A program made the translations under genes and the position numbers. From Patescibacteria group bacterium (lineage in GTDB: Bacteria > Patescibacteriota > JABMPQ01), in assembly GCA_018818965.1 (NCBI GenBank), contig JAHJQX010000020.1, forward strand, positions 1 through 59,266: a stretch of 59,266 nucleotides of DNA, in the 5' to 3' direction. Of the stretch, positions 1 through 38,543 are shown piece by piece; within the stretch, counting starts at the first letter, position 1; each line of letters begins with the position of its first letter. The notes beneath the pieces were generated by a model. That model ran no database searches. It saw only the letters and a list, made by a program, of their open reading frames with translations, and had not been told where the DNA came from.

Positions 1-306
1 GTCACCAGCCCCTGATGTTCCTCTCTGAATACCACCATCAATACGAACATTATCCCCAAAGGTAACTGGATTATCAACTCCACCACTACCAGTAGTACTA
101 TTTACAATACTACCATTAAAGTAGGTTACTCCCCCTGTACCTTGAGAGCCTATTCTGATCGAGGGAACTACTACTGTCTCCGAGTAGGTAATGGTACTGG
201 CCGGTTGGAGGGAGTTGGCAGTACTAGCTGAAGCCACCAGGCTCAGTGAGAGGCAGAAGGCGAGGGTGAGGGTGGTTATTGTTAGGGTTTTAGTTAGAGT
301 AACCAT
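1..306 (-). CDS. N-terminal fragment (102 codons, runs off the window start) of a secreted fibre-like protein; third paralogue of the 9831 and 12632 genes
   Basis: My own reverse-strand translation from the ATG at 306-304 gives MVTLTKTLTITTLTLAFCLSLSLVASASTANSLQPASTITYSETVVVPSIRIGSQGTGGVTYFNGSIVNSTTGSGGVDNPVTFGDNVRIDGGIQRGTSGAGD. It has a signal-peptide-like start. The motifs (I/L)QPA, GTGGV.F.NGSI.N and PVTFGD.VRIDG.I.RG align with residues ~35-115 of both large ORFs. It is missing from the ORF track because it has no stop in the window. Confidence 0.6.
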   Translation of the reverse strand, partial: MVTLTKTLTITTLTLAFCLSLSLVASASTANSLQPASTITYSETVVVPSIRIGSQGTGGVTYFNGSIVNSTTGSGGVDNPVTFGDNVRIDGGIQRGTSGAGD

Positions 307-345
307 AAGTTAATTTTATTTTACGGGCTTATTTTAGCACACTTT

Positions 346-3294: not shown

Positions 3295-3343
3295 TAGTTT
3301 ATAGAAAATCAACTAGAAATTAAACATTTATCGTTCACCCCTA

Positions 3344-7623: not shown

Positions 7624-9615
7624 ATGCAGTTAGAAATCTATCCAGTTGTTGCCTCGTTGATCGCTCTTGTCTTTGCTGTCATTCTGGCCATGCGAATTAA
7701 AAAGATGAAAGATGGCACTGAGGAGATGAAGAACATTGCCAACTCTATCAAAGAAGGAGCCATGGCCTATTTATCCCGACAGTATAAAGTAATTGCCTTA
7801 TTTGCAATTGTTTTATTTATTGTCCTGTGGTGGGCGATCAATTTTGAAACTGCCATCGGATTTTTGGCTGGAGCGTTCTTGTCAGCTTTGGCGGGCTATA
7901 TTGGCATGAGTATATCGGTGCGGGCTAACGTTAAAACAGCTGAAGCGGCCAAGTCTGGCCTTGATAAAGCTTTATCCGTTGCCTTCAAAGGTGGGACGGT
8001 AACTGGCATGTGCGTAGTTGGTATGGGTCTACTCGGCGTTTCCGTTTTTTACCTTTGGTTTAGGGATCCAATTTTGTTAGTTGGTTTTGGTTTTGGAGCT
8101 TCTCTAGTTTCTCTTTTCGCTCGTGTCGGTGGCGGTATTTACACCAAGGCAGCTGATGTCGGAGCAGATTTAGTAGGTAAAGTAGAAGCTGGAATTCCCG
8201 AAGATGATCCTCGTAATCCAGCCACTATAGCTGATAATGTGGGTGATAATGTAGGTGATTGCGCAGGGATGGCCGCTGATTTATTCGAGACTTACGCGGT
8301 GACAGCTATTGCAGCTATGATTTTAGGTCTTGGTATGGCTAATGGTGCAACCTATCCCTTAGTTTTAGGGGCGGTGGCTATTATCGCTTCGATTGTCGGT
8401 GCTTTCTTTGTCCGACTAAAGGGTGAGAAAATTATGGAAGCCTTATACAAAGGGATGTTTGTGGCGGCTGGACTCTCCATTATTGGTTTTTACTTTGTTA
8501 CGAAATGGATGGTAGGTGATATGAAACTTTTCTGGGCAGCCGTGGTTGGTATCGCTGTGACAGTTATCATCACCGTCGTTACTGAATATTTCACTTCTAC
8601 CAAATACAACCCAGTTAAAGCAATCGCGGAAGCATCCAAGACTGGTCCAGGGACAAATATTATTTCTGGTTTGGCAGTTGGCCTTAAAAGTACCTGGCCG
8701 ATGGTAGTAACCATTTGTGTTGGTATCCTTCTGGCGTATTACTTGGCTGGTGTGTACGGGATTGCTATCGCGGCAGTCGGAATGCTTTCTATTACTGGCA
8801 TTGTGGTTGCTCTCGACTCTTATGGACCAATTACTGATAATGCTGGTGGTATTGCCGAAATGGCTAAATTGCCCGAGAAGGTGCGTCGGAATACTGATGC
8901 TCTCGATGCCGTGGGTAATACTACTAAAGCTGTTACTAAGGGTTATGCGATCGGTTCAGCTGCTTTAGCTGCCTTAGCCCTATTCTCAGCCTATACTGAT
9001 GAGATTGCCAAGGCAGTGGAAGAACTCAAGTTAGACACAGAAATGATACTTAATATCGATAATGTTTTTGTCTTGATTGGTTTACTGCTTGGTGGTTTAC
9101 TGCCCTTTGTTTTCTCAGCTTACGCCATGCAAGCTGTTGGCCGGGCTGCCTTTAAAGTAGTGGAGAATGTGCGCAAGCAGTTCAAAGAAAAAAAGATTAT
9201 GGAAGGAAAAGACAAGCCAGATTATGGTCAATGTGTAGATATTGTGACTAAAGCGGCGCAAAAGGAAATGATCTTACCAGCTATCTTAGCCGTTGGTTCA
9301 CCCTTAGCCGTTGGTTTTCTCTTGGGTCCCAAAGCTTTGGGTGGCTTTCTGATTGGTATTATTATCACTGGTCTTTTAGTAGCTATCCAAATGACTACCG
9401 GGGGAGCGGCTTGGGACAATGCCAAGAAGTATATCGAGGATGGTAATCATGGCGGTAAGGGTTCGGAGGCGCACAAGGCGGCCGTGGTTGGCGATACGGT
9501 CGGTGATCCCTATAAAGACACCGCTGGACCAGCTCTTAATTCCTTAATCAAGGTAATTAATACCATCGCCTTGATATTCGCAGCCTTAATTGTTGGTAAT
9601 CACTGGTTAGGTTAA
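7624..9615 (+). CDS. hppA: membrane-integral proton-translocating pyrophosphatase (K+-independent type)
   Basis: 663 aa and multi-TM. The motifs are [38 protein letters not shown] and [18 protein letters not shown]. The Lys/Thr in GNTTKAxT is the K+-independent signature. Confidence 0.95.
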
Positions 9616-9638
9616 TTGTTTAAGTCATCTTTTACTAA

Positions 9639-9666
9639 AGCGGGTTGTTAATTAGCCCGCTTTTTG
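9639..9666 (+). terminator. intrinsic terminator after hppA
   Basis: The stem AGCGGGTT/AGCCCGCT (with one G:U pair) has a 7-nt loop and is followed by TTTTTG. Confidence 0.65.
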
Positions 9667-9682: not shown

Positions 9683-9711
9683 TTGATTTATGTTTAAGTT
9701 TATGGTAGTAT
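9683..9711 (+). promoter_or_regulatory. sigma70-like promoter candidate for the fibre operon
   Basis: TTGATT-N17-TAGTAT. It would give a ~110-nt 5' UTR ending in an A-rich tract before the ATG at 9831. Confidence 0.4.
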
Positions 9712-9830: not shown

Positions 9831-12563
9831 ATGACCGAAGTATTTATCGTAAAAAGGATAGCTTTTGTTGGTAGTTTAGCTGTTCTTTTATTTTTGATCG
9901 CATCGGGAAACTCACAGGCTGCTAATGGTTCAGATATTCAACCGGCGGATGATCTTATTTATTACGAAAGACTACGAGTCAACAGCTCTATCCATGTCGC
10001 TGACTCTAGTTATTATCCCCGCGGCGTTCATCTCGGTAGTATCGATGGTACGGGCGGGGTGATATTCACCAACGGTTCAATTATTAATGCTTCCGATGGT
10101 AGTGTACCAGTTACTTTTGGCGATGATGTGCGGATCGATGGTCGCATCTGGCGTGGCCCGAGTGCGGGTCCAGGTGATAGTTTCCCGGTCAAGATTTATG
10201 ATGATTTGCGGGTAGATGGTCAAATTTGGGCCGGACGCAGTAGGGGCAACACTGCCGATGGTCAATCGATAGTGATAGCTGATACAGTGCGCCCCGCTTT
10301 GGATAATATTAATGACTTTGGTTCTCCAGGTTTCCGGATGCGCGATGGCTTTTTTTCCGGCTCAGTTAATATGAGTAATTTAGGGGGAGCAAATGTTGTT
10401 CATGAAGATAATCTTAGTACAACTAATGATCCCCAAGCCGGGTACGTATTAGCTTATGATAGCGATAATAGATTCCAGTGGGTGCGAGCTTCAACCAGCA
10501 GCTCTGGTACATTGTCAGATAATGATTGGACCGGAGCGGGTAGTGGAAAGATGTATGCCACTTCTGAAGATGACTATGTCGGAATCGGACTTACCGATAC
10601 CAATAATATTACTGCTAGATTACATGTAGTTGATAATACTAATACAAATTCCACTGTATATGGAGAAGCGAATGGGATTGGTAGTGCTGCTTTGTACGGT
10701 TTAGCAACCGCACCAGGTAGTACAGCAGTTTATGGTTCTGGGGATGCCTATGGTGGAGATTTTAGTGGTACCGAAGCCAATGGAGTAGGTGTTAGTGGCG
10801 AAGCCAATGGTGTGTCTGGAATTGGTGTAGAGGGTAAAGCTGCTCATATTTCCGGCACTGGCGTTAAGGGCGAGGCGTCTGCTACGGACAGTGGTACTAA
10901 TTATGGTGGTGATTTCTCCGCAGCCGGTACAACTGGAGTAGCTGTTAGAGGACAAGCTACTTCTACTAGCTCAGATACTAGCTATGGCGGGTATTTCTCC
11001 GCTGCTGGTTCTGCTGGGATGGGAGTGCGTGGTGAAGTTAGTGATACGAGTCTGTTAGCAGCCTCATATGGCGGATATTTCTCTTCGGCTACTGGGTTGG
11101 GTAGAGGTGTTTATGGCTATGCAAGCAATACTCTTGGTATAAATTTCGGTGGATATTTTAAATCTGATAGTGTTCTAGGCAGTGGTGTCTATGGTACCAG
11201 TCCATATTTTGGCGTGAACGCTTACGCCACCCCGGCTGCTGGGGCAACAACTAGTGCGGCCGTGGTTGGCCAAAATTATGATAGCACTACGGCCATTAGT
11301 CTACCTATACCAGTCGGTAATTATGGGGCCTTCCTTGAAACTACACATGATACTGGTACTGGAGTTTACGGTCATGCAGCAGATACTGACGGTGTCAATT
11401 ACGGTGGTACTTTTATTAGTGAGAGTAGCAATGGTTATGGCCTTTTCGCTAGCGGCGGTACTAGAGGCGGCTCTTTTATAGCCAGTGCGGGGGTAGGTGT
11501 TAGCTCTCTTGGCACAACTCATGGCGGTTCTTTTATAGGTTCTGCTGGTCCAGGGGTTTATGCTCTGGGTGCTACCAATGGGATTGAAGCAACCGCTGCC
11601 GCTGGTGCCGGGGTATCTGCCACTGGTACTGCTTATGGCGTTGAGGCAACAGCTAGTGCGGGGGCAGGAGTAAAGGGGACTGGTACTACTTATGGCGGCG
11701 ATTTTTTAGCTAGTAGTGGTACAGGCGTAAGGGGTATAGCGACTACCGGGACTGGAGTCAGTGGAACAGGTGATACAGGTGGTGGTAGTTTTACTGCTAG
11801 TAGCGGTACTGGTGTTTATAGTAGAGGCACCACTTATGGAGCATATCTTACTACTATTACAGCGGGAGGAATTGGCGTAGAGGGGTATGCTGGTACTACG
11901 GGGTCATCAGCTAACTATGGAGTGTTAGGTCAGACCATAGATAGTGGCGCCGGTACAACTGTTTGGGGTGATTCACTTTCTGGCGGTAGATTTTATACTA
12001 ATTACGCTTCGGGTATCGGAGTTGAGAGCTATACTGATGGTGATGATAGCTCAGCTGTTTATGGATATACTAGTGGAGGTGGCACAAGCTACAGCGGAGA
12101 GTTTAGTGGAGCTAATTTTAAGGTTTCTTTAGGCCCTTCCTCAAACAATTTTACTGTTGAGAATTTGCCCATTGCTGGCAATACTACTGATGTTCAAACT
12201 GATGGAAATGGCAATTTTATTGAAGTTGGCTCTTCCCGTAGATATAAATATGATATTCAAGATTTGGTCGTTGATAAAGACGCTGTTCTAGATTTGCGGC
12301 CGGTAAATTATAAATATAAAAGAACTGACGAGAGAGATATTGGGCTAATTGCTGAGGAGGTGTATGAAGTTTTGCCAGAGCTTGTTGTGCTGGATAAGGA
12401 AGAAAAACCGAAATCAGTAAAATACGATCGTGTTCCAGTGTATCTTCTCGAACTAGCCAAAGAGCAACAAGCAACAATCGAAAGCCAGGAAACTCGCATC
12501 CAGCAATTGGAAGATACTATTTGTAAATACCTACCACAAGAAGAAATGTGCTCGAGTGACTAA
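9831..12563 (+). CDS. secreted glycine-repeat fibre protein with a C-terminal tail-fibre S74 intramolecular-chaperone domain (paralogue 1)
   Basis: 910 aa. It has a signal peptide (IAFVGSLAVLLFLIASGNSQA), a conserved ~230-aa N-module (GDDVRIDGRIW, YDDLRVDGQIW), a VGIGLTD...ARLHV tail-fibre-like neck, ~490 aa of G/S/T/A/Y repeats (YGG(Y/D)F...G.GV.G), and a C-terminal SSRRYKYDI...DLRPVNYKYK......IGLIAEEV.EVLPELV......V.YDRV.VYLLE.AKEQ. Confidence 0.85.
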   Translation: MTEVFIVKRIAFVGSLAVLLFLIASGNSQAANGSDIQPADDLIYYERLRVNSSIHVADSSYYPRGVHLGSIDGTGGVIFTNGSIINASDGSVPVTFGDDVRIDGRIWRGPSAGPGDSFPVKIYDDLRVDGQIWAGRSRGNTADGQSIVIADTVRPALDNINDFGSPGFRMRDGFFSGSVNMSNLGGANVVHEDNLSTTNDPQAGYVLAYDSDNRFQWVRASTSSSGTLSDNDWTGAGSGKMYATSEDDYVGIGLTDTNNITARLHVVDNTNTNSTVYGEANGIGSAALYGLATAPGSTAVYGSGDAYGGDFSGTEANGVGVSGEANGVSGIGVEGKAAHISGTGVKGEASATDSGTNYGGDFSAAGTTGVAVRGQATSTSSDTSYGGYFSAAGSAGMGVRGEVSDTSLLAASYGGYFSSATGLGRGVYGYASNTLGINFGGYFKSDSVLGSGVYGTSPYFGVNAYATPAAGATTSAAVVGQNYDSTTAISLPIPVGNYGAFLETTHDTGTGVYGHAADTDGVNYGGTFISESSNGYGLFASGGTRGGSFIASAGVGVSSLGTTHGGSFIGSAGPGVYALGATNGIEATAAAGAGVSATGTAYGVEATASAGAGVKGTGTTYGGDFLASSGTGVRGIATTGTGVSGTGDTGGGSFTASSGTGVYSRGTTYGAYLTTITAGGIGVEGYAGTTGSSANYGVLGQTIDSGAGTTVWGDSLSGGRFYTNYASGIGVESYTDGDDSSAVYGYTSGGGTSYSGEFSGANFKVSLGPSSNNFTVENLPIAGNTTDVQTDGNGNFIEVGSSRRYKYDIQDLVVDKDAVLDLRPVNYKYKRTDERDIGLIAEEVYEVLPELVVLDKEEKPKSVKYDRVPVYLLELAKEQQATIESQETRIQQLEDTICKYLPQEEMCSSD
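10641..12111 (+). repeat. in-frame glycine-rich repeat array (~27-aa YGGxF units, then ~19-aa G.GV units); coordinates approximate
   Basis: Reading the protein gives units such as NYGGDFSAAGTTGVAVRGQATSTSSDTS / YGGYFSAAGSAGMGVRGEVSDTS.. / YGGYFSSATGLGRGVYGYASNTLGIN. Later units are TTHGGSFIGSAGPGVYALG / TAYGVEATASAGAGVKGTG / TTYGGDFLASSGTGVRGIA. Confidence 0.5.
12231..12560 (+). other. Peptidase_S74-like intramolecular chaperone (autoprocessing) domain plus a C-terminal coiled coil and Cys loop, paralogue 1
   Basis: SSRRYK (a Ser-x4-Lys dyad pattern) begins at 12231. GLIAEEVYEVLPELV and VYLLELAKEQQATIESQE match the endosialidase-chaperone pattern. The protein ends in CKYLPQEEMC. Confidence 0.7.
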
Positions 12564-12631
12564 TCTTTAATTTTCTCTGGTTTAGTGTTAAAATAGTTAA
12601 CAAGCAACAGTAATATGGGAGTAGTTTACTA

Positions 12632-15385
12632 ATGAAAATGAAAACTACAATGTTGCCGGCGATAATCACAATTAAAAGAATAGCTTTCAGTTTGGGAGTG
12701 GCTGTTTTGACGTGCCTGACTGTTACTAATCTGGCTCAAGCCTCAGACGCCTCTGACATTCAACCCGCCTCCGATGTGGTTTATGGTGAAAGACTGCGAG
12801 TCAACAGCTCCGTTAGTGTGGCTGACTCGAGTTATTATTATCGTGGCATTCATTTAGGTAGTACAGACGGCACTGGTGGCGTGATATTTGCTAATGGTTC
12901 AATTATTAATGTTTCTGGTGGTAGTACTCCAGTTACTTTTGGTGATGATTTGCGGATTGACGGTCGTATTTGGCGCGGACCAACGGCTGGTCCGGGTGAT
13001 AATTTCCCGGTCAAGATTTATGATGATCTACGCGTAGATGGCCAAATATGGGGAGGACGGAGTAAGGGAAATACTGCTGATGGCCAATCTATAGTGCTAG
13101 CTGATACTGTGCGTCCAGCTTTGGATAATATTAATGACTTTGGTGCTCCAACTTTCCGGATGCGAGATGGCTTCTTCTCTGGCACGGTCAATGTGGGAAA
13201 TTTAGGGGGGGCTGGCGTTGTTCACGAAGATAATTTAAGTGCAACCAATGATCCGCAGGCCGGATATGTGTTGGCATACAATAGCAATAACCAATTTCAG
13301 TGGGTTGCTGGTTCGGGCGTTGGTGGTTCAGATACTGACTGGACGGGAGCGGGCACGGGCACAATGTATGCTACTACTACTAGTGATAATGTAGGGATTG
13401 GTTTAAGCACTGGCTTGAATGCCAAGCTTCATGTTTATGATGCCAGCAATACAGTTGTAGAAGGACAAAGTGTTTCAGCAGCCGGAGTAGTAGGGAGAAG
13501 TTCTACTGGCGATGGGGTAAAAGGTCACAGTACTTCTAGTGAAGGTGGTTGGTTTGAGACGGCCAGTGGCACCCGTGCTGTCTATGGCCAAGCGACTGAC
13601 ACTGGTAGTGGTGTTCACTATGGTGGTTATTTTACCGCTGGCAAGAATAGCGGCATTGGGGTTCTCGGATCATCTACTGGTTCTGACGGAGCCGGTGTTT
13701 ATGGTAGTTCCACCGGAACGGGCAGTAGCGCCACCGGTGTTTCGGGAATGGCGGCTTCCTATGGAGGTGATTTTGCAGCTACCGGGACAAGTGGACTTGG
13801 AGTGAGGGGACAGGCAGTTGGTACTAGTGGTGTTGGGATACAGGGCATTGGTGGATATTATGGCGGTCAGTTTTCTAATAGTGGCACTGGTGGTGGAGTG
13901 GGTATGCAAGCGGCTGTAACTAGCGGTTCAACTTTTTCTTCGGCGGTTCTGGGGATTAATAATTCAACTGGTTTGATTTTACATCCTACCGGTCATTATG
14001 GTGGATATTTTAGTAATTCTATTGCTTCTGGCTATGGGGTTTATGCGACTGCTTCAGGTTCTAGTGGCATCGGAGTTTATGGCTCATCTAGCCATACAGG
14101 AGTAACGGGCACCGTTTCATCAACGGGTCAGGCGACTGGCTATGGCGTGTCTGGTACCTTGACTGATACCAGCTTGCCAGCTGTGGTTTATGCTGGGCTA
14201 TATGGGGGATTGTTTACCACCAATTATGCTTCTGCTACAGCATTATCCGGATCTGCTAGTAATTCTACTAGTACTGGTGTCTATGGCTACGGCGGATTAT
14301 ATGGTGGTGATTTTTATGCTGCGAATAATAATGGGGCGGGAGTAAGGAGTAGGGTTATAACTGGTTCGGGCGCTGCTTCAGCAGCGGTGTTTGGGTTAAA
14401 TAATACAACTGGCACAGTTCCGGCATATACTGGGCATTATGGAGGATATTTCCAATTAGAAAGTAGTGCCGGCTTTGGTGTTTATGCTAAGACGGATGCT
14501 GCTAATAGTACAGCTGTCCATGCTTACAATTCTTCCACCGGAGTTAATGCCACTGGCGGATATTTTGAAACGGAAAGCGATACCAGTTACGCTGTTTATG
14601 GTTTAGCTGATGGTGGTGGGACGGGGACAAATTATGGTGGATATTTTAAGGCTGATGCATCTTCCGGTACTGCTGTTTATGGCACTACTTCTGGAACTTC
14701 GGGAACGGGCGTTGATGGTATTGCCTCTGGATCTTCAGGGACAGGTGTTGCTGGAACTGGATATAAATATGGCGGATATTTTATTGCACAAGATACTTCA
14801 AATGGCTACAGCGGGGTTTTTTCAGGTGGTAATTTTTCTGTTGGATTGTCCACCACTTCTAATAAGTTTAGGATTACTGCGGGTCCTACATACACCGGCA
14901 TAGGTCTTGCGTCGGGCTCTTATCATGATGTTCAAATTTTAGCCGATGGTACTTTAGCTGATGGCGGCGCTTCTTCAATCCGCCTTAAAGATAATGTTGA
15001 AAATTTAACTTTTGATACTGCAAGTGTTCTCGATCTGCAACCTGTTAGCTTTACTTACAAAGAGAGTGGTGAGGCTGGTGTTGGTTTAATCGCTGAAGAT
15101 GTTGAGCAAATTATGCCCGAGTTAGTTACTTATGACGAAGAAGGTAGGGTTGATGGAGTAAGATATAGAAACATACCGCTGTATCTATTGCAAATAACCA
15201 AGGATCAGCAAACTAAAATAGAGGTTCAAGAAAGCAAAACAATTACGCAAGAAAACAAAAACACTGCCCAAGACAAAACCATCGAAGAACAAAAAAATAA
15301 AATCACCGAACTAGAAAATGAAGTCAGTAGTCTTAAATCAGCTTTTTGCCGGTATTTACCCCACGAAGATATTTGCCAGGAATAA
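12632..15385 (+). CDS. secreted glycine-repeat fibre protein with a C-terminal tail-fibre S74 intramolecular-chaperone domain (paralogue 2)
   Basis: 917 aa with the same architecture as 9831..12563. The N-module looks roughly 80% identical at DNA level by eye (e.g. 12940-13150 vs 10110-10320). The central repeats are diverged. The C-terminus is SSIRLKDNVENL...LQPVSFTYK...GVGLIAEDVEQIMPELV...VRYRNIPLYLLQITKDQ. Confidence 0.85.
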   Translation: MKMKTTMLPAIITIKRIAFSLGVAVLTCLTVTNLAQASDASDIQPASDVVYGERLRVNSSVSVADSSYYYRGIHLGSTDGTGGVIFANGSIINVSGGSTPVTFGDDLRIDGRIWRGPTAGPGDNFPVKIYDDLRVDGQIWGGRSKGNTADGQSIVLADTVRPALDNINDFGAPTFRMRDGFFSGTVNVGNLGGAGVVHEDNLSATNDPQAGYVLAYNSNNQFQWVAGSGVGGSDTDWTGAGTGTMYATTTSDNVGIGLSTGLNAKLHVYDASNTVVEGQSVSAAGVVGRSSTGDGVKGHSTSSEGGWFETASGTRAVYGQATDTGSGVHYGGYFTAGKNSGIGVLGSSTGSDGAGVYGSSTGTGSSATGVSGMAASYGGDFAATGTSGLGVRGQAVGTSGVGIQGIGGYYGGQFSNSGTGGGVGMQAAVTSGSTFSSAVLGINNSTGLILHPTGHYGGYFSNSIASGYGVYATASGSSGIGVYGSSSHTGVTGTVSSTGQATGYGVSGTLTDTSLPAVVYAGLYGGLFTTNYASATALSGSASNSTSTGVYGYGGLYGGDFYAANNNGAGVRSRVITGSGAASAAVFGLNNTTGTVPAYTGHYGGYFQLESSAGFGVYAKTDAANSTAVHAYNSSTGVNATGGYFETESDTSYAVYGLADGGGTGTNYGGYFKADASSGTAVYGTTSGTSGTGVDGIASGSSGTGVAGTGYKYGGYFIAQDTSNGYSGVFSGGNFSVGLSTTSNKFRITAGPTYTGIGLASGSYHDVQILADGTLADGGASSIRLKDNVENLTFDTASVLDLQPVSFTYKESGEAGVGLIAEDVEQIMPELVTYDEEGRVDGVRYRNIPLYLLQITKDQQTKIEVQESKTITQENKNTAQDKTIEEQKNKITELENEVSSLKSAFCRYLPHEDICQE
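13457..14867 (+). repeat. in-frame glycine-rich repeat array of paralogue 2; coordinates approximate
   Basis: Recurrent units include HYGGYF...G.GV.GSS, SYGGDFAATGTSGLGVRGQA, YYGGQFSNSGTGGGVGMQA, HYGGYFSNSIASGYGVYATA, LYGGDFYAANNNGAGVRSR, NYGGYFKADASSGTAVYGT. Confidence 0.5.
14972..15382 (+). other. Peptidase_S74-like intramolecular chaperone domain plus an extended coiled coil and Cys loop, paralogue 2
   Basis: SSIRLK begins at 14972. A 137-aa C-terminal module ends in a Q/E/K-rich heptad-like stretch and CRYLPHEDIC. Confidence 0.7.
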
Positions 15386-15426: not shown

Positions 15427-16845
15427 ATGCAAAACCAAAACCAAAATCAAAACGTGAATCAACCACTAGCTCCAGGAACTGGTCTCACTAGCGCCGTTAT
15501 GGGACAACCGCCACGACCGCCAGCCTCTAGTCCTCCCCAGCAACCGCCTCAGCCTCAACCGCAGCCACAGGCGGCCAAGCCCAGTCCTCCTCAACCAGCC
15601 AAGGTAAAACCCTCTAAGCGTAAAGAAGGCAAAGGAAGCAAGATAATAATGCTAGCCATGATTGTTTTGCTTGTCGGTGTAGCTGCCGCCAGCGTTTATT
15701 TCTTTCTGGGGCTATCTAACAAAGACAGCAAACTAGAAGGCAAGATCAACGAGAATCAGAGTGCTGTCACTGATCATAAAGACAAGATAGACAAATTACA
15801 GACCACAGCCTCCGAGGTTGATACTCTCAAGCAAAAAGTAAGTACAATCGAAGAGAAATCAGCTGGATACGCGGAGAGTAGTGAATTAGAAGCTATTATT
15901 GATTATTTAAAAACAGAAGACAGTGATAGCGATGGCTTGTCTGATTATGAAGAGGTGACAGTATATAAATCTAGTCGTTACAAAAAGGATACTGATGGTG
16001 ATGGCCATGATGATAAGAGTGAAGTTGACAAAGGCTATAATCCTAACGGTCCCGGTAAATTAAGCGATGCTGACAGTTCGGCAGCTGATTCCACCACTAT
16101 AAATGGTGAGTGGGCAGGATCTTTGTCTTCAACTTCAGCCGAAGCGAAAGATTTTAGTATCGAAGTGGATGAAAATGGCAAGGTCAGTGGTAGTTTCGGC
16201 TTTACCAATAAAGATGACGGGAAAATCCTCAGCAGTCGAGTAACAGGGACATATACCTACAAAGATAACAAACTTGATGCTATCTTAATTAATTATCTGA
16301 CGATCAAGGACGAAGATACCACTGGCAGTGATAGCACCACTGATTCAGCCGATGAAGTGCAATACAAAATGGAGCTAACTGGTTCTCTTTCGAAGGAGAC
16401 CAAGGAAATTGTCGGTAGCTGGAAGATTACAGGCGACGCGCCAGCTAATTGGCCAGCGGGTCCGAGCGGTTCGTTCAAAGTAACCAAAAAAACCACCGAG
16501 AAGAACGAAAAACTGGAAGACAGCACAAGCGACAGCACTTCTACTGATGACTCTACGGCGGTGACTAAAAAAATATCAGTCAAGGCCTTCAGTTATGGCT
16601 TTTTGCCCACCGCAATTACTTTGACTGAGGGTGAGAAGGTGAAATTTGAAGTAACCAGTCTTGATGTTGACCACACTTTCACTGTCGATGAGCTCGGCAT
16701 AAACGTTCAAGTGAAAGGTGGCCAGACTTCCACTTTGGAATTCACCCCGAGTAAGACCGGAACCTATGATTATTATAGTTCGATTTCCGGCCAGAAAGAT
16801 TCGGGGATGAAGGGGACGATAACGGTGGAGGAGAAGAGTAGTTAA
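15427..16845 (+). CDS. single-pass membrane protein with a Q/N/P-rich N-terminus, coiled coil, thrombospondin-type-3-like Ca-binding repeats and a degenerate C-terminal cupredoxin-like domain
   Basis: The N-terminus is MQNQNQNQN..PPQQPPQPQPQPQ. The TM helix is IIMLAMIVLLVGVAAASVYFFLG. The Ca-binding-like repeats are DSDSDGLSDYEE...DTDGDGHDDKSE. The C-terminal FSYGF.P..ITL.EGEKVKFEVTS.DVDHTF.V.ELG......GGQTS.LEFTPSKTGTYDYYSSISGQKDSGMKGTITV resembles a cupredoxin with Cys->Ser and His->Gln at the copper ligands. Confidence 0.8.
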   Translation: MQNQNQNQNVNQPLAPGTGLTSAVMGQPPRPPASSPPQQPPQPQPQPQAAKPSPPQPAKVKPSKRKEGKGSKIIMLAMIVLLVGVAAASVYFFLGLSNKDSKLEGKINENQSAVTDHKDKIDKLQTTASEVDTLKQKVSTIEEKSAGYAESSELEAIIDYLKTEDSDSDGLSDYEEVTVYKSSRYKKDTDGDGHDDKSEVDKGYNPNGPGKLSDADSSAADSTTINGEWAGSLSSTSAEAKDFSIEVDENGKVSGSFGFTNKDDGKILSSRVTGTYTYKDNKLDAILINYLTIKDEDTTGSDSTTDSADEVQYKMELTGSLSKETKEIVGSWKITGDAPANWPAGPSGSFKVTKKTTEKNEKLEDSTSDSTSTDDSTAVTKKISVKAFSYGFLPTAITLTEGEKVKFEVTSLDVDHTFTVDELGINVQVKGGQTSTLEFTPSKTGTYDYYSSISGQKDSGMKGTITVEEKSS

Positions 16846-16871
16846 AGTTTCATTGCCAGTTTTGATAAAAA

Positions 16872-16899
16872 AGAGCTGCCGGATTGGCAGTTCTTTTTT
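16872..16899. terminator. bidirectional intrinsic terminator between the fibre operon and thrS
   Basis: The 9-bp stem AGAGCTGCC/GGCAGTTCT (one G:U pair) has the loop GGATT. It is flanked by AAAAAA upstream and TTTTTT downstream, between convergent genes. Confidence 0.7.
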
Positions 16900-16950
16900 G
16901 ATTTGTGTGGTCGCTTTCGAGGTATATCCTAAAGCGATCATGACAAAAAA

Positions 16951-18707: not shown

Positions 18708-19850
18708 TTATTTCTCCACCGTTATTTCAATGTGATCTTTTAAACTGGGTACGCTTTTGACCCAGAAAGGGGAGAAAGAAACTTCTATTTTTTCGATGTC
18801 ATCCATCACGGCGTAATATTTTTCTACTTCTTCTTTATTCCGGCCAGCTAGTTGTTCTTTATCGAAGACCTGATTGCCTAATTTGGAGATAGCAGAGCCG
18901 ACTAAGTTAACCTTCACTTTTGCCCAACCTTCCTCTGGGTGGTATTCAATTATTTCATAGGTTGTTTGGTCGGCATCGGAGCTGGTAAATTCTTTGCTAG
19001 CGGAAATTTTCTTTTTAATGCGGGCTACCCCCAGGTCGATCAAGGTTTGTTCATCGAATATCACCGCTATTAACTTGAGTTTTACTTTCATTGCAAATTC
19101 TTCGGTCGGTGTATCAGGCTTAACGGAAGCTTCGCTAATGACGATTTCTTTTTTTATTGCTTTCTCGTTTATTTCTTCTTTTGGTTTAAGTTGGGTACGT
19201 AGATTTTCTAACCCTTTTTGGTAGAGACTATCAATCACTTGTTGTTGTGCTTGGTCGATTACTTCTTGGGTAGCTACTTTTACTTCTTGGGTACCGCCAG
19301 TGGTGGCAGCAGATGTTTCTCCGTAGTAGGAACTTTGCCAATTTTGCCAGATCTTAACGATGGTAAAGTGAGTAGGCTCGATATTGCCCTGAGCACCAGC
19401 CTGGTCAGCGGTGATCCCCACTTCAGCTTTGCTGTGGGCAGGGATGACTACGCGAGCATCAGTACGAAACAGAATTCCAGAGTCGGAGAGCATTTGAGAG
19501 TGGGGGAGTAATGATTGGCTTTCGTCGAGTTTGTTGTAAATAGTGATAGTACCCGTAGCTCTGGTGTCGATGGTCTTAAGACCAATATCGGTGATCGTCT
19601 GGGTTTCTTCAGCCTCGGTCTGGATCATCCGTCCCTGGATATTTTGCAGTTGTGTGAGATCAAGATCTTCATTGGGCTTAATACTTACTTCATATTCGGT
19701 ATTAATAATTTCTTTTTTAGGAGTGATCTTGATGTCAGCCTTGGAGAAGGAAGCGTACAAAACAAAACCAATCAATAGTAGACTAATGACTGCGAAAATA
19801 AAAATTATTTTTTTGTATGATTTTCCAGTTTCGATTCGTCCGACGTACAT
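18708..19850 (-). CDS. membrane-anchored hypothetical protein, possibly baseplate-J/gp47-like
   Basis: There is an N-terminal TM helix (IIFIFAVISLLLIGFVLYASF). The segment TGTITIYNKLDESQSLLPHSQMLSDSGILFRTDARVVIPAHSKAEVGITADQAGAQGNIEP resembles, from my memory, a pattern in CPR proteins annotated as baseplate J family. The CDS call is solid; the family call is tentative. Confidence 0.5.
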   Translation of the reverse strand: MYVGRIETGKSYKKIIFIFAVISLLLIGFVLYASFSKADIKITPKKEIINTEYEVSIKPNEDLDLTQLQNIQGRMIQTEAEETQTITDIGLKTIDTRATGTITIYNKLDESQSLLPHSQMLSDSGILFRTDARVVIPAHSKAEVGITADQAGAQGNIEPTHFTIVKIWQNWQSSYYGETSAATTGGTQEVKVATQEVIDQAQQQVIDSLYQKGLENLRTQLKPKEEINEKAIKKEIVISEASVKPDTPTEEFAMKVKLKLIAVIFDEQTLIDLGVARIKKKISASKEFTSSDADQTTYEIIEYHPEEGWAKVKVNLVGSAISKLGNQVFDKEQLAGRNKEEVEKYYAVMDDIEKIEVSFSPFWVKSVPSLKDHIEITVEK

Positions 19851-19980: not shown

Positions 19981-21126
19981 CTAGAGTCCTTGTTCACACC
20001 TTGTTAGTCTTTCCTGAAGTTCGTCGTTTTTTTCTTGGAGTGCTTGCATTTCTCCCCTTAGCTCTTCGATTCTAGCTTCTAGGTCATTCTTTTCTTTTTC
20101 TAGCAATTCAGCTCGACCACGGGGAGATATTTCGGCCGTTAATTTAGCATCTGATCCTTCGTTGCTTTCCCAGCGAGCCATTTTACGGACTTCTTTGTTT
20201 TCTAAGGCATGGCCATCGCTAGTTTCGTAGAGCTGAGCCCGAATTTTGCCGATCACAGTTTCGAATGTTTCTCCCGTTTCGTCTATTGTCACTTTCTCAG
20301 CAATATCCTTTATGGAGGCGTAACCAATACTAACTCCAGATTCCATTAAGAAACCTTCTGGTAGGGTCACTCCCGCAGGGGGCTCTTTAAGGCGGGGAAA
20401 TTTCAACTCGCCTCCTTCAGTAGTTTCAGCAATTACTTCCTTGAATTTTGCCGCTACTTCTGCCTGTAGTCGATGGGTAAATTCAGCAAGTATTTCCTGG
20501 CGTTTAGTAGACGAAGTACCTTTTTTAAATACAATTAGTCCGCCAAATTCTTCACCACCCTCAACGGTGAATTCAACGGCGGAGGGTTGGTTTTCATCAC
20601 GAGCTGTTAAGACGTCTTGCTCTCTTAACCAACTGACAGCCTCGCCATTTTTTAATGTTTCAGAAAAGGTGTGTAATATATTGTCACCAGCCTTATGACC
20701 ATAATAATCATTGAATGTTTTAAACTCATCAAGATCTAGATCAAGACGAACAACTCGATCAAGGTCATCAAGAGTTGGCTCTTGCTCACTAGCTAGAATT
20801 ACATCCAATACTTCATCACGGAGGCGACCGTTAGCATATGCCCGATTGCCAAGTTCGATGTAGGGGCGAGGATCTTGAAGAGTGGTTTCTAAATCGCTAG
20901 CGTGCTCGCTCGCTAATTCCATTACAACCTCATCGGGGACTCCAGCCTCCTTCAGTCTATCTTCATAGTTATGAAGTCTTACTCGCAGTGGTTCTATGAG
21001 ACGATATTCGCTGGGTTTTTTCGCTCTTTCTGGATCTGGTCTATTTTCACTAAGAAATCTTAGAATACTGATTGGATTGGATTCCGCTGCCTCCGGGCTA
21101 GCATCTGGTGGATTATCTGTTACCAT
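19981..21126 (-). CDS. GGDEF-domain protein (putative diguanylate cyclase) with an unknown N-domain and a C-terminal coiled coil
   Basis: LDLDLDEFKTFNDYYGHKAGDNILH matches the D.D.FK..ND..GH..GD..L pattern, and VEGGEEFGGLIVF carries an intact GGEEF. The C-terminus LLEKEKNDLEARIEELRGEMQALQEKNDELQERL is heptad-like. Confidence 0.7.
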   Translation of the reverse strand: MVTDNPPDASPEAAESNPISILRFLSENRPDPERAKKPSEYRLIEPLRVRLHNYEDRLKEAGVPDEVVMELASEHASDLETTLQDPRPYIELGNRAYANGRLRDEVLDVILASEQEPTLDDLDRVVRLDLDLDEFKTFNDYYGHKAGDNILHTFSETLKNGEAVSWLREQDVLTARDENQPSAVEFTVEGGEEFGGLIVFKKGTSSTKRQEILAEFTHRLQAEVAAKFKEVIAETTEGGELKFPRLKEPPAGVTLPEGFLMESGVSIGYASIKDIAEKVTIDETGETFETVIGKIRAQLYETSDGHALENKEVRKMARWESNEGSDAKLTAEISPRGRAELLEKEKNDLEARIEELRGEMQALQEKNDELQERLTRCEQGL

Positions 21127-25169: not shown

Positions 25170-25820
25170 TTAGTTTTTCTCAATCCTCAATTTACTTCTC
25201 TTTTTTCGGCTTTCGAAGTAGAGCACGCCACCGACAACGATAATAACTACTCCCAAGATAAGCAGAAGGGTAAGTAACACCCAACCGAAGAGAATGTGGG
25301 AGGTTTTGACCAGCGCTGATACCACCCAACGACCTGCGCTGGTGCTATCGAGAATAAAGATAATGAAAAAGAATGAAATGGTGCCTAGGGCAGCCCTTTT
25401 TAATAGTTTACGGGGAGCATTTATATAATGTCGGAAAAATAAAATTATTTTATCAAAGAAACTCAGCTCTTTCTCCTCTATCTTAGTAAGATCTTTGACA
25501 GCCTGATGGTAGGCAGAAAGTATTTCCTTGATATCTGTTATTTTAATATCAGCGGCTACCTCTAGGGATAATTTTTTATAGACATCACGAGCTAGTTGAA
25601 GAGCTTCATAATCAGAAAAGACGCCACGGGCGTTGTGTATGCGCTGGTCAGTGGTTTTCCCCGGGAAGTTTCTTCTTTTTAAAACCTCGTCAAAGATTTT
25701 TTCTGTTTCGATTACTGCCATCGCTGCGCCACCTTTGTCTTTTTCGTTGACGTAAGCCTCAACTTTTTCCCAATTAAGAGTCGGTTGTTTGAGGATTTTT
25801 TCCTCTTTTCTCTTTTCCAT
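25170..25820 (-). CDS. hypothetical membrane protein (soluble N-domain, two C-terminal TM helices)
   Basis: 216 aa. The TM segments are ALGTISFFFIIFILD and ILFGWVLLTLLLILGVVIIVVGGVLYF. I recognise no family. Confidence 0.7.
   Translation of the reverse strand: MEKRKEEKILKQPTLNWEKVEAYVNEKDKGGAAMAVIETEKIFDEVLKRRNFPGKTTDQRIHNARGVFSDYEALQLARDVYKKLSLEVAADIKITDIKEILSAYHQAVKDLTKIEEKELSFFDKIILFFRHYINAPRKLLKRAALGTISFFFIIFILDSTSAGRWVVSALVKTSHILFGWVLLTLLLILGVVIIVVGGVLYFESRKKRSKLRIEKN

Positions 25821-32065: not shown

Positions 32066-32069
<4 letters not shown>
30078..32069 (+). CDS. ntpI: V/A-type ATPase subunit I (membrane a-subunit)
   Basis: 663 aa. The N-terminal half is a cytoplasmic coiled coil and the C-terminal half is multi-TM, with LSYSRLLALGLATGVIA (the essential Arg helix) and HIFNIVINVLGAYIHSGRLQFVEFF. 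Confidence 0.9.
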
Positions 32070-33009
<940 letters not shown>

Positions 33010-33022
33010 TTCTAGTCAGTTC

Positions 33023-33193
33023 GGCTAGTCGTCTTAGTATATCTAGAAAACATGTCAGATTTCCCCAGCCTGCCTGCCGGCAAGCAGGCTGGGGAAATCC
33101 AACTCGGCTTCCGGCCTTGCTCTCCCGCCGAAGGCGGGAACCGTGCCTGCAAGGTCTCCAGACAGTTTTCTAAATACACCAAGGCGACTAGCC
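33023..33193 (+). repeat. GC-rich palindromic/structured insert A (CCTGCCTGCCGG family) between ntpK and ntpE
   Basis: The outer arms are GGCTAGTCG (33023-31) and CGACTAGCC (33185-93). A 42-nt near-perfect palindrome GATTTCCCCAGCCTGC-CTGCCGGCAA-GCAGGCTGGGGAAATC spans 33058-33099. A second hairpin is TCCCGCC-GAA-GGCGGGA (33123-39), nested in GGCCTTGC/GCAAGGTC. Confidence 0.55.
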
Positions 33194-33227
33194 ATCCAAT
33201 TTTGGAAAAGTTGTAATTATATAAAGA

Positions 33228-33794: not shown

Positions 33795-33804
33795 TATTCT
33801 TTAG

Positions 33805-34809: not shown

Positions 34810-34810
34810 A

Positions 34811-35134: not shown

Positions 35135-35138
35135 CCAT

Positions 35139-35249: not shown

Positions 35250-35281
35250 AAATATATAAACAACTAATTCATTATTAAGAA

Positions 35282-37072: not shown

Positions 37073-37123
37073 GTTATAGGTGTTAGGCATTAGGTTTTAG
37101 GTTAAATAAATTTTGAAAAATAT

Positions 37124-38521: not shown

Positions 38522-38543
38522 TCAGCGCGATTAGAATATATAA

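What the first reader, a model, noticed from the sequence alone, without database searches (positions are those of the whole stretch)
9831..15385. Tandem ~910-aa glycine-repeat surface fibres end in a phage tail-fibre (S74) self-cleaving chaperone domain, in a non-prophage context
The two adjacent genes share one architecture:
- a signal peptide;
- a conserved ~230-aa N-module with an internal duplicated motif (GDDvRIDGRIW / YDDLRVDGQIW);
- a neck resembling tail-fibre proteins (VGIGL....L.A.LHV);
- ~470-490 aa of YGGxF / G.GV.G repeats;
- a C-terminal domain matching the endosialidase-type intramolecular chaperone pattern (S-x4-K, L.L.PV.(Y/F).YK, (I/V)GLIAE(E/D)V..(V/I).PELV, (V/I)P(V/L)YLL...K(E/D)QQ).

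This chaperone domain normally drives trimerisation of phage tail fibres and spikes and is then cleaved off. Here the flanking genes are hppA and thrS, and there are no capsid, terminase, tail-tube or integrase genes. The fibres therefore look host-owned. For an organism with a probable episymbiotic lifestyle (inference), such trimeric fibres are plausible attachment or host-recognition organelles.
Basis: partly seen in the sequence, partly recalled or inferred. Interest (0 to 1): 0.78.

Follow-up and report, generated by a model that had tools for sequence, protein, structure and literature searches.

The report
Cell-owned phage-like fibres in a CPR bacterium
Two neighbouring chromosomal genes of an ultra-small (CPR/Parcubacteria) bacterium encode secreted, glycine-rich fibre proteins that end in the self-cleaving folding domain known from phage tail fibres. 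They closely parallel the "MAT" prey-recognition fibres described in 2024 in the predator Bdellovibrio, so they are a new variant of a known kind of cell-surface adhesin rather than a prophage remnant.

Summary
ORFs 9831-12563 (910 aa) and 12632-15385 (917 aa) share one architecture:
- signal peptide;
- ~235-aa N-module;
- ~490 aa of YGGxF/GxGVxG repeats;
- Pfam Peptidase_S74 (E 2.7e-12 and 2.6e-10) with invariant Ser-x4-Lys;
- a long helix and a terminal Cys-x8-Cys loop.

The genes are host-owned. All 59 kb is housekeeping genes of a Parcubacteria-type genome (DnaE 86% identical to a Parcubacteria MAG). The cassette fibre-a, fibre-b, cupredoxin-like membrane protein lies beside thrS in three genomes. 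Codon usage matches the host.

Phage contigs share only the last ~110 residues. None of 95 viral S74 ORFs has the N-module, the repeat shaft or the Cys loop.

The N-terminal ~100 aa belongs to an unannotated family (554 clusters) that heads many small secreted proteins. All three named members are from Parcubacteria, and a third member lies at window 1-309.

The family profile matches the Bdellovibrio MAT fibre Bd2133 (E 1e-7) through the "VGIG...KLHV" motif. MAT fibres have the same layout, so the concept is already published.

Most likely mechanism (inferred):
- Sec export;
- S74-driven trimerisation;
- self-cleavage at S801 (F1) and S781 (F2);
- N-terminal anchoring;
- binding through the variable distal tip.

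Adhesion to a host cell is plausible but untested.

The parts
9637..9663 (+). Terminator-like hairpin ending the upstream hppA gene. It separates the fibre cassette from hppA.
   Evidence: 11-bp stem, 5 GC pairs, T-run. A weak promoter-like TTGATT-17 nt-TAGTAT at 9683-9711 was seen by eye. It falls below the scan's threshold and was not reported.
9831..12563 (+). Fibre gene F1 (910 aa, subtype 'a' with a short C-terminal helix).
9831..9920 (+). F1 signal peptide (aa 1-30). The hydrophobic core is IAFVGSLAVLLFLIA, and the predicted cleavage is SQA|ANGS.
   Evidence: 15-aa hydropathy 2.83, and the only TM-like segment in the protein. The AxA-type site is conserved across the family. No dedicated signal-peptide predictor was available.
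9921..10631 (+). F1 N-module (aa 31-267). It comprises sub-domain A (aa ~31-135, with the duplicated DDxRxDGxIW rungs) and a neck (aa ~136-267: PALDNINDFGSxGFR, GYVLxY..F.W, VGIG...LHV).
   Evidence: 554 related clusters; most conserved segment; AF2 pLDDT 75, extended chain; neck motif matches Bd2133.
10632..12095 (+). F1 shaft (aa 268-755): YGGxF...GxGVxG repeats with variable spacing of 26-57 aa; 23% Gly, no Cys.
   Evidence: 31-44% identity among family members; absent from viral S74 proteins.
12096..12230 (+). F1 distal tip just before the cleavage site (aa 756-800). This is the most variable segment.
   Evidence: 28-52% identity.
12231..12563 (+). F1 S74 intramolecular chaperone/protease (aa 801-910). 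It contains catalytic S801 and K806, helix 865-900 and the Cys loop C898-x8-C907. The predicted released fragment is 110 aa.
   Evidence: (S801, R804, K806 invariant in 30 sequences).
12632..15385 (+). Fibre gene F2 (917 aa, subtype 'b' with a longer C-terminal helix). Signal peptide aa 1-37, N-module aa 38-269 (nt 12743-13438), then the repeat shaft and tip up to aa 780.
14972..15385 (+). F2 S74 chaperone/protease (aa 781-917). It contains S781 and K786, an extended coiled-coil helix and the Cys loop C906-x8-C915. The predicted released fragment is 137 aa.
15427..16845 (+). Third gene of the cassette, a single-pass membrane protein. It has a Pro/Gln-rich N-terminus, a TM segment at aa 73-91, a coiled-coil-like stretch, a TSP3-like motif and a C-terminal cupredoxin-like domain with the Cu ligands replaced (YYSSISGQ).
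   Evidence: The gene is conserved directly after the fibre pair in L001 and L166. No terminator-like site lies between the three genes in an intergenic position.
16866..16900 (+). Strong terminator-like hairpin that closes the cassette, in the convergent gap before thrS.
   Evidence: 16-bp stem and T-run.
1..309 (-). 5' part of a third N-module (sub-domain A) family gene, cut off by the window edge. It encodes a signal peptide followed by LQPAS...GGVTYFNGSIVN...PVTFGDNVRIDG.
   Evidence: E 8e-14 to the N-module HMM.

Best explanation
F1 and F2 are chromosomally encoded, Sec-exported fibre proteins of a CPR (Parcubacteria-type) bacterium. They work like Bdellovibrio MAT fibres and phage tail fibres.

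Proposed mechanism:
1. After export, the C-terminal S74 domains of three chains associate through a three-helix bundle, which is capped here by a Cys-x8-Cys loop.
2. This nucleates folding of the preceding glycine-rich shaft into an intertwined beta-helical trimer.
3. The Ser-Lys dyad (S801/K806 in F1, S781/K786 in F2) then cuts the chain and releases a 110- or 137-aa chaperone fragment. This exposes the variable distal tip.
4. The strongly conserved N-terminal module, which many other secreted Parcubacteria proteins share, holds the fibre at the cell surface.
5. The variable shaft and tip bind a ligand, most plausibly on the surface of the bacterium's host cell.

Shown here: the architecture, S74 homology with an intact catalytic dyad, a host-owned syntenic locus, the conservation gradient, and the modular N-domain family.

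Inferred: export, trimerisation, cleavage, anchoring and adhesion.
For: S74 domain:
- Pfam hits are above the gathering cutoff in both proteins.
- S801, R804 and K806 are invariant in 30 relatives.
- The motif aligns to SSDRRIK of a phage long tail fibre (6f45, E 2e-14) and to the MyRF ICA domain (E 9e-8).
- The only confident part of the AF2 model is this domain plus a 36-residue helix. Foldseek returns MyRF, EndoNF and GA-1 chaperones.

Host ownership:
- All 46 large ORFs of the window are housekeeping or conserved CPR genes.
- DnaE is 86% identical to a Parcubacteria MAG.
- The arrangement fibre-a, fibre-b, cupredoxin-like gene, thrS is conserved in L001 and L166. hppA is also present upstream in L001, whereas the L166 contig starts at the fibre gene.
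- Another lineage keeps a tandem S74 pair, or non-S74 family members, in a fixed slot next to the rpsL operon.
- Codon usage is within the host range.

Secretion:
- N-terminal hydrophobic segment plus an AxA site.
- The Cys-x8-Cys loop is found in 13/14 proteins with both N-module and S74, but in 0/48 other cellular and 0/95 viral S74 proteins.

Fibre logic:
- Identity falls from 63-94% (sub-A) to 28-52% (pre-cleavage tip), then rises again in S74.

Oligomeric shaft:
- The monomer AF2 model gives an extended N-module of fairly high confidence without intrachain secondary structure. It gives no confident solenoid for the repeats.

Link to MAT fibres:
- The family profile hits Bd2133 (8ond) at E 1e-7 over three copies of the VGIG...P..KLHV motif.
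- MAT fibres have the same domain order, S74 and non-S74 subgroups, demonstrated self-cleavage and surface display (PMC10769870).
Against: - No experiment or multimer model supports trimerisation, cleavage, surface location or binding.
- The signal peptide was judged from sequence features only. Its 17-residue hydrophobic core could instead act as an uncleaved membrane anchor.
- The N-module has no significant structural match in the PDB or BFVD, so its anchoring role rests only on conservation and analogy.
- Homology of the N-module to the MAT N-terminal domain could not be tested.
- The Pro of the MAT capping-loop consensus is not kept in F1 or F2.
- No GTDB representative genome was found with the N-module, so the taxonomic breadth rests on metagenomic proteins, most of them unnamed.
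- An episymbiotic lifestyle for this particular organism is assumed from its phylum, not shown.
Confidence: 0.65

Rival explanations
1. The two genes are the tail-fibre module of a prophage or a decaying phage remnant, and play no role for the cell.
For: The C-terminal ~110 aa match phage tail-fibre PHROGs and 476 viral-contig relatives. A Baseplate_J-like gene lies 3.3 kb away.
Against: - There is no capsid, terminase, portal, tail tube, lysis or integrase gene in 59 kb.
- The cassette is syntenic between housekeeping genes in three genomes, with both genes intact.
- Both proteins carry signal peptides. By established knowledge, phage fibres assemble in the cytoplasm and do not.
- None of 95 viral S74 ORFs has the N-module, the repeat shaft or the Cys loop.
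- The Baseplate_J-like gene is a full-length ~380-aa family spread across CPR on contigs over 500 kb, and is co-transcribed with thrS.
Confidence: 0.03
2. They are genuine cell-surface fibres, but their job is not host attachment. They could form a protective or spacing coat, a decoy that soaks up phages, a biofilm or matrix scaffold, or a nutrient- or particle-capturing fuzz.
For: The genes sit among housekeeping genes and are kept as a fixed a/b pair, which would suit a constitutive structural role. No recognisable lectin or receptor-binding tip domain was found. Relatives with the same repeats and S74 occur in free-living phyla such as Planctomycetota.
Against: The N-to-C conservation gradient, with the most variable segment right at the exposed tip, is the signature of a specificity-determining binder rather than a bulk coat. 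The closest characterised relatives (MAT fibres, phage fibres) are adhesins.
Confidence: 0.2
3. The fibres are released into the medium rather than anchored, for example as soluble trimeric lectin-like or bacteriocin-like agents.
For: There is no sortase motif, lipobox, SLH domain or C-terminal anchor in the mature part. The anchoring partner is unknown.
Against: No toxin or enzymatic domain was detected. The sub-A head is strictly N-terminal and highly conserved across hundreds of different secreted proteins. That fits a shared docking function better than a free soluble protein.
Confidence: 0.1
4. The S74 domain here folds the fibre but no longer cleaves, and stays attached as a distal cap.
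For: Cleavage was not tested. The family-specific Cys loop and the long coiled coil of subtype b suggest the C-terminal piece may have acquired a function of its own.
Against: The catalytic Ser and Lys, and the neighbouring Arg, are invariant across 30 diverse relatives. This would not be expected if catalysis were dispensable.
Confidence: 0.07

Closest known systems
Bdellovibrio bacteriovorus MAT (mosaic adhesive trimeric) fibres, e.g. Bd3182 (S74 type) and Bd2133 (Caulton et al. 2024, PMC10769870)
   Same: - Chromosomal, cell-owned and multi-copy per genome.
- Same order of parts: signal peptide, conserved N-terminal domain directly after it, long beta-rich fibre of ~700-1000 aa, then a C-terminal S74 chaperone/protease with Ser-x4-Lys.
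- S74 is optional within the family; non-S74 members have other tips.
- The variable part is distal and the constant part is N-terminal.
- Shared VGIG...(P)..KLHV 'capping-loop' motif (profile hit to Bd2133, E 1e-7).
- The owner lives on other bacteria.
   Different: - Different phylum (CPR/Parcubacteria versus Bdellovibrionota) and presumably a different cell envelope.
- The N-module is ~235 aa, with its own sub-domain A family that also heads many small proteins. Homology to the ~130-aa MAT N-domain was not demonstrated.
- The shaft is built of YGGxF/GxGVxG glycine repeats.
- A terminal Cys-x8-Cys loop follows the coiled coil.
- There is a fixed a/b tandem pair with a cupredoxin-like membrane protein.
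- There is no experimental evidence of any kind.
Phage tail fibres and spikes with a C-terminal intramolecular chaperone (K1F endosialidase EndoNF, T5 pb1, S16-type long tail fibre 6f45, GA-1 neck appendage)
   Same: - S74 domain above the Pfam cutoff.
- The catalytic Ser/Lys align.
- The fold is supported by Foldseek.
- The domain follows a beta-helical fibre and ends in a helix that forms a trimeric bundle in the solved examples.
   Different: - Only the last ~110 aa are shared.
- The present proteins have signal peptides, a non-viral N-module, a repeat shaft not seen in 95 viral S74 ORFs, and a Cys loop.
- They are not next to any virion gene.
MyRF (eukaryotic myelin regulatory factor) ICA domain
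   Same: It is another cellular co-option of the S74 chaperone/protease. It is the best structural hit (7dc3) and a profile hit at E 9e-8.
   Different: MyRF is a membrane-bound transcription factor, and cleavage releases its DNA-binding part. It has no fibre, no signal peptide and no adhesion role.
Trimeric autotransporter adhesins (YadA/Hia type)
   Same: They are long, repetitive, trimeric surface fibres. Some database entries for relatives are named this way, and a few relatives carry YadA_head repeats.
   Different: F1 and F2 have no YadA-like C-terminal beta-barrel anchor and no YadA head or stalk Pfam hit. Polarity is opposite: here the constant, presumably cell-proximal end is N-terminal, and the C-terminus is cleaved off.

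Membership tests
Peptidase S74 / C-terminal intramolecular chaperone domain (PF13884) | Match to the family HMM above the curated cutoff | tested here: met
   47.2 and 40.9 bits against a cutoff of 22; E 2.7e-12 and 2.6e-10.
Peptidase S74 / C-terminal intramolecular chaperone domain (PF13884) | Catalytic Ser-x4-Lys dyad at the start of the domain | tested here: met
   S801/K806 (F1) and S781/K786 (F2). They are invariant in 30 relatives and align to SSDRRIK of 6f45.
Peptidase S74 / C-terminal intramolecular chaperone domain (PF13884) | Fold: small beta domain plus a long C-terminal helix, placed at the C-terminus of a fibre | tested here: met
   AF2 pLDDT 82-93 for aa 800-900, with helix 865-900. 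Foldseek top hits are 7dc3 (prob 1.0), 3gw6 and 3gud. E-values are modest because the rest of the query model is poor.
Peptidase S74 / C-terminal intramolecular chaperone domain (PF13884) | Trimerisation-dependent autoproteolytic release of the domain | not testable with these tools
   This needs expression of wild type versus S801A, or proteomics. No multimer predictor was available.
Bdellovibrio-type MAT fibres | Signal peptide followed directly by a conserved N-terminal domain shared by all family members | tested here: met
   There is a signal-peptide-like N-terminus. Sub-domain A starts at median residue 29 in 84 relatives and is the most conserved segment.
Bdellovibrio-type MAT fibres | Homology of that N-terminal domain to the ~130-aa MAT N-domain | not testable with these tools
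   No MAT N-domain sequence or structure was on hand, since the PDB holds only MAT tips. The N-module has no significant PDB or BFVD match. The unnamed hits could not be checked for Bdellovibrio origin.
Bdellovibrio-type MAT fibres | Capping-loop motif V-G-G/N-pi-x-x-P-x-x-x-L in the beta-helical shaft | tested here: inconclusive
   The family profile aligns three times to this motif in Bd2133 (E 1e-7) and weakly to Bd3182 (E 0.22). F1 and F2 have VGIGL...(A)(R/K)LHV but lack the Pro.
Bdellovibrio-type MAT fibres | Mosaic family: common base, interchangeable tips, with S74 and non-S74 members | tested here: met
   Only 4 of 140 N-module relatives on disk have S74. The others carry diverse C-termini. 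L165 has three non-S74 members in the slot where L002 has an S74 pair.
Bdellovibrio-type MAT fibres | Intertwined trimer along the whole length; surface display; role in recognising another cell | not testable with these tools
   Only indirect hints exist: an extended AF2 monomer and no confident solenoid.
Prophage / phage tail-fibre module | Embedded among virion structural, packaging, lysis or integration genes | tested here: not met
   None in 59 kb. The flanks are hppA and thrS in the window and L001 (L166 shows thrS; its contig starts at the fibre gene).
Prophage / phage tail-fibre module | N-terminal tail- or baseplate-attachment region shared with phage fibres; no signal peptide | tested here: not met
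   0 of 95 viral S74 ORFs match the N-module. Viral matches cover only query aa ~780-905. Both proteins have signal-peptide-like N-termini.
Trimeric autotransporter adhesins | C-terminal YadA-like membrane-anchor beta-barrel | tested here: not met
   No such Pfam or NCBIfam hit. The C-terminus is an S74 domain.

The most novel reading that the evidence does not exclude
The ~100-aa sub-domain A is a Parcubacteria/CPR-specific surface-display head. It docks a whole repertoire of passengers (S74-matured fibres, mini-fibres with small Cys-rich tips, YadA-like proteins) onto one conserved envelope receptor.

The fibre cassette would work together with a dedicated membrane dock. Candidates are the co-transcribed cupredoxin-like single-pass protein and the neighbouring, CPR-wide, membrane-anchored Baseplate_J-like protein. 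In phages, the baseplate wedge is what tail fibres attach to.

That would make this a minimal, cell-anchored 'baseplate plus fibre' host-recognition organelle assembled from phage tail parts, and a molecular basis for host specificity in non-Saccharibacteria CPR.
Probability: 0.15. Interest if true: 0.85.

Novelty: new variant of a known kind. Interest (0 to 1): 0.55.

Why it matters
How CPR/Patescibacteria recognise and hold on to their hosts is largely unknown outside Saccharibacteria, where type IV pili are implicated (PMC12206443 abstract). The library searches found no paper connecting Patescibacteria with S74 or tail-fibre-like proteins.

If these fibres are host-binding organelles, they offer several things:
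- a sequence-readable specificity determinant, namely the variable tip;
- a handle for predicting host ranges from metagenomes;
- bait for fishing out hosts of uncultivated Parcubacteria.

They would also show that the MAT-type solution found in Bdellovibrio is a more general strategy of bacteria that live on other cells. The unannotated N-terminal head domain (554 clusters, no Pfam family) would be a useful marker for the CPR surface proteome.

Tried and rejected
- Single-sequence PDB search with full-length F1: no hit. With the C-terminal 140 aa: only a marginal 6f45 hit. The profile search was needed.
- Full-length AF2 monomer: uninformative outside S74 (mean pLDDT 51).
- N-module AF2 model searched against PDB and BFVD: nothing significant.
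- GTDB genome scan with N-module patterns: no locus. The first attempt failed because the alignment was too diverse.
- Word-indexed search with the N-module profile: only 15 hits. The exhaustive search was the informative one.
- NCBIfam and PADLOC: nothing for the fibres, so a defence-system reading has no support.
- Bactofilin-like reading of the DDxRxDGxIW rungs: only a sub-threshold Bactofilin hit in one short relative (P0143, 26.2 bits against a cutoff of 27.9) and none in F1 or F2. Not adopted.
- Lipoprotein anchoring: F1 has no Cys in its signal peptide. The Cys in F2 is not in a lipobox context and is not conserved. Rejected.
- Recent gene conversion or an assembly artefact between paralogues: rejected (79% nt identity over 300 nt).
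- Slippage-prone DNA repeats in the shaft: none. The only tandem repeats are two short 21-nt arrays in the F2 coiled-coil region.
- Foreign origin judged from composition: the raised GC of the region (0.48 versus ~0.42) reflects Gly/Ala codons. GC3 is in fact slightly low, and codon-usage distance is within the host range.
- The 'Rz-like spanin' PHROG hit of the cupredoxin-like protein (E 1e-4) covers its TM and coiled-coil stretch. I regard it as compositional.

Full report
OBSERVATION

They are 41% identical overall, with a near-colinear N-terminal 260 residues and C-terminal 130 residues.

All listed motifs are present:
- a hydrophobic N-terminus ending in SQA|A or AQA|S;
- the duplicated DDVRIDGRIW / DDLRVDGQIW rungs, 26 residues apart;
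- the VGIGL...LHV neck;
- eight or nine YGGxF...GxGVxG units in a ~490-aa segment that is 23% Gly and free of Cys;
- the S74 motifs.

Pfam Peptidase_S74 scores 47.2 and 40.9 bits against a cutoff of 22. PHROG tail-fibre families match only the last ~100-130 residues. A monomer AF2 model is confident only for residues 800-900, which form a small beta domain plus a helix at 865-900. Its best structural matches are the MyRF ICA domain and the EndoNF and GA-1 intramolecular chaperones. In a 30-sequence alignment S801, R804 and K806 are invariant. A family profile aligns SSxRxK to SSDRRIK of a phage long tail fibre (6f45, E 2e-14) and matches MyRF (E 9e-8).

CONTEXT AND OWNERSHIP

The window is chromosomal DNA of a CPR bacterium. 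Its DnaE is 86% identical to that of a 'Parcubacteria group' MAG. It is 67% identical to another Patescibacteria MAG and ~54% to Moraniibacteriota.

Every large ORF is housekeeping or a conserved hypothetical. The list includes EF-P, YchF, S6, SSB, NusA, H+-PPase, ThrRS, DnaE, FtsW, L25, a V/A-type ATPase operon, SHMT, a Mur-ligase-family protein, ThyA, DHFR, a P-type ATPase, PrmC and RF1. Permissive Pfam and PHROG scans of the unannotated ORFs found no capsid, terminase, portal, tube, lysis or integrase gene.

The one phage-flavoured hit is the 380-aa ORF at 18708-19850 (minus strand). It matches Baseplate_J at 24.6 bits against a cutoff of 21.1, and PHROG_6 'baseplate wedge' at E 8e-8. This protein has an N-terminal TM helix and abuts thrS, so it is probably co-transcribed with it. 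It belongs to a full-length ~380-aa family found across Parcubacteria, Yanofskybacteria and other Patescibacteria on contigs over 500 kb. It is a conserved CPR gene, not a prophage marker.

Synteny settles ownership:
- L001 has EF-P, YchF, S6, SSB, NusA, H+-PPase, a 644-aa fibre, a 755-aa fibre, the cupredoxin-like gene, (M15), ThrRS and the 380-aa gene.
- L166 has a 760-aa fibre, an 857-aa fibre, the cupredoxin-like gene, ThrRS, LysE and the 380-aa gene.
- L167 has H+-PPase followed by a fibre.
- A more distant lineage keeps a tandem S74 pair (699 + 687 aa) between nucleotide-sugar genes and the rpsL-rpsG-fusA-tuf operon.
- In a 1.05-Mb contig the same slot holds three family members without S74.

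Codon usage of F1 and F2 lies within the spread of the other window genes. The raised GC of the region comes from Gly/Ala codons.

WHAT IS AND IS NOT SHARED WITH PHAGES

A scan of 2.9 million viral contigs found 476 relatives. The best 80 match only query residues ~780-905, and at most 603-890. Among 95 S74-bearing ORFs in those loci, none matches the N-module and none has more than two YGGxF units. None ends in the Cys-x8-Cys loop, which 13 of 14 proteins with both N-module and S74 possess. None of 48 other cellular S74 proteins has the loop either. Only the chaperone is of the phage type. The rest is a coherent cellular lineage whose N- and C-terminal signatures co-vary.

THE N-MODULE

An exhaustive profile search of 1.84 billion representatives with the 235-aa N-module found 554 clusters at E <= 1e-3 and 323 at E <= 1e-10.
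- Only the eight core proteins carry the whole module.
- Most hits are short (median 319 aa) secreted proteins. They share sub-domain A (LQPA...GGVTFFNGTIxN...PVTFGDDVRIDGxIWRG), which starts at median residue 29, directly after a signal peptide. Their C-termini are diverse.
- Long fibre proteins share the repeated 'P..DN.YDLGSSS.RWK.GYFAG' neck motif. In one of them this motif hits Pfam End_tail_spike.

Sub-domain A has no Pfam, NCBIfam or structural match. The three relatives that carry a source name are all from Parcubacteria MAGs.

The window itself encodes a third member at its left edge (1-309, minus strand; E 8e-14). The 1.05-Mb contig carries at least four.

The AF2 model of the N-module has pLDDT 75 but almost no intrachain secondary structure over its first 170 residues. 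That is the picture expected for one chain lifted out of an intertwined oligomer.

CONSERVATION PATTERN

Among the eight core proteins, identity varies by segment:
- sub-domain A: 63-94%
- neck: 52-80%
- repeats: 31-44%
- the 45 residues before the cleavage site: 28-52%
- S74: 45-86%

Two subtypes exist: 'a' with a short terminal helix (F1, P0002, P0003, P0005) and 'b' with ~28 extra helical residues (F2, P0004, P0006, P0008). The order a then b is the same in the window, L001 and L166, so the duplication predates these genomes. DNA identity between the paralogous N-modules is 79%, without long identical tracts.

MECHANISM

The cassette starts after the hppA terminator (9637-9663). It ends at a strong hairpin (16866-16900) after the third gene, with no intergenic terminator in between. 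No good sigma-70 consensus lies upstream. Only a weak TTGATT-17-TAGTAT was seen by eye.

My best account, by homology with EndoNF, T5 pb1 and Bd3182 (established knowledge and PMC10769870), is as follows:
1. Sec export.
2. Association of three S74 domains through their helices, stabilised outside the cell by the Cys loop.
3. Zipper-like folding of the glycine-rich shaft into a trimeric beta-helix.
4. Self-cleavage before S801 (F1) or S781 (F2), releasing 110- and 137-aa fragments.
5. Retention at the cell through the constant N-module.
6. Binding through the variable shaft and tip.

Scaling from the ~550 Å Bd3182 model, the mature fibre would be on the order of 50 nm. This is a rough inference. 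Steps 1 to 6 are inferred. What is shown is the architecture, the intact catalytic dyad, the ownership and the gradient.

The co-transcribed 472-aa protein is conserved after the fibre pair in three genomes. It has a TM segment at aa 73-91, a coiled-coil-like stretch, a TSP3-like motif, and a cupredoxin fold with Cys/His replaced by Ser/Gln in all three orthologues. It is a candidate partner, but nothing tests that.

COMPARISON WITH WHAT IS KNOWN

Caulton et al. 2024 (PMC10769870) described 21 'mosaic adhesive trimeric' fibres in Bdellovibrio. Their features are:
- a signal peptide;
- a conserved ~130-aa beta-rich N-domain without PDB homologues, thought to bind the predator surface;
- ~1000-aa meandering trimers;
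- 13 members ending in S74 (SDxxxK, with cleavage shown at S782 of Bd3182) and 8 ending in other tips;
- surface display and a role in prey handling.

The present family has the same layout and the same split into S74 and non-S74 members. Its profile hits Bd2133 (8ond) at E 1e-7 through three copies of the VGIG...P..KLHV capping-loop motif. The idea of cell-owned S74 fibres on a bacterium that lives on other bacteria is therefore published. NCBI already labels many cellular relatives 'tail fiber domain-containing protein' (Planctomycetota, Margulisiibacteriota, Micavibrio).

What is new here:
- the phylum;
- the distinct and much more widely used N-terminal head domain;
- the YGGxF shaft;
- the Cys loop;
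- the fixed three-gene cassette.

Full-text searches found no paper linking Patescibacteria with S74 or tail-fibre-like proteins. Whether the N-module is homologous to the MAT N-domain could not be tested. I therefore file this as working like a MAT fibre and as a new variant of that kind, not as a proven MAT family member.

VERDICT

The prophage alternative is essentially excluded. The adhesion role is plausible but untested. Interest is moderate (0.55). It is a solid, well-delimited lead into CPR host recognition, but the concept has a clear precedent.

Noticed in passing
window 18708-19850 (-): A 380-aa protein with an N-terminal TM helix and a partial Baseplate_J / baseplate-wedge domain (Pfam 24.6 bits against a cutoff of 21.1; PHROG_6 E 8e-8). 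It abuts thrS and is conserved in L001 and L166. Full-length homologues are spread across CPR and are named 'baseplate J/gp47 family protein' by NCBI. Its function is unknown. Why a membrane-anchored baseplate-wedge domain is conserved in CPR is unexplained.
   Followed up: partly
window 15427-16845 (+): The cupredoxin-like membrane protein that follows the fibre pair has Ser and Gln in place of the Cys and His copper ligands (YYSSISGQKDSGMKG). The same holds in all three orthologues (window, L001, L166). It is probably a non-copper beta-sandwich surface protein. Its N-terminus is an extreme Pro/Gln-rich low-complexity tract of variable length.
   Followed up: partly
window 1-309 (-): Start of a third gene of the N-module (sub-domain A) family, cut by the window edge. 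It resembles the short ~350-aa class (P0126, P0129).
   Followed up: partly
window 30078-39170 (+) and 7624-9615 (+): A complete V/A-type ATPase operon (I, an RDD-family protein, c/K, E, C, A, B, D) together with an H+-pyrophosphatase in a Parcubacteria-type genome. This is an energy-coupling set worth a look in a lineage usually described as metabolically minimal.
   Followed up: no
window 907-3312 (-): An 801-aa protein with no Pfam family. It has a sub-threshold NCBIfam match to the MXAN_6640-family HExxH putative metalloprotease (E 2.4e-27, 96 bits against a cutoff of 140). It lies between EF-P and YchF.
   Followed up: no
P0005, P0006, P0008 (neck region; L001 and L166): Three family members carry a ~25-aa insertion in the neck, L(S/H)C(T/A)(N/S)GQ(I/V)xKYNGTAWxC. 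This is a Cys-bracketed hairpin-like motif that is absent from F1 and F2.
   Followed up: no
L165 14019-14963 (+): An rve-type integrase/transposase gene sits beside the 'fibre slot' of the 1.05-Mb contig, between the N-module genes and the rpsL operon. It may be relevant to turnover of the slot's content.
   Followed up: no
window 19981-21126 (-) and 25170-25820 (-): A 381-aa protein has only a fragment of a GGDEF domain (aa 123-160) plus a C-terminal coiled coil. A 216-aa protein has a very weak LPXTG-anchor-like C-terminus (E 0.039, not significant). L166 has genes of similar size or type beside the 380-aa gene (a 216-aa ORF and a GGDEF-domain gene).
   Followed up: no
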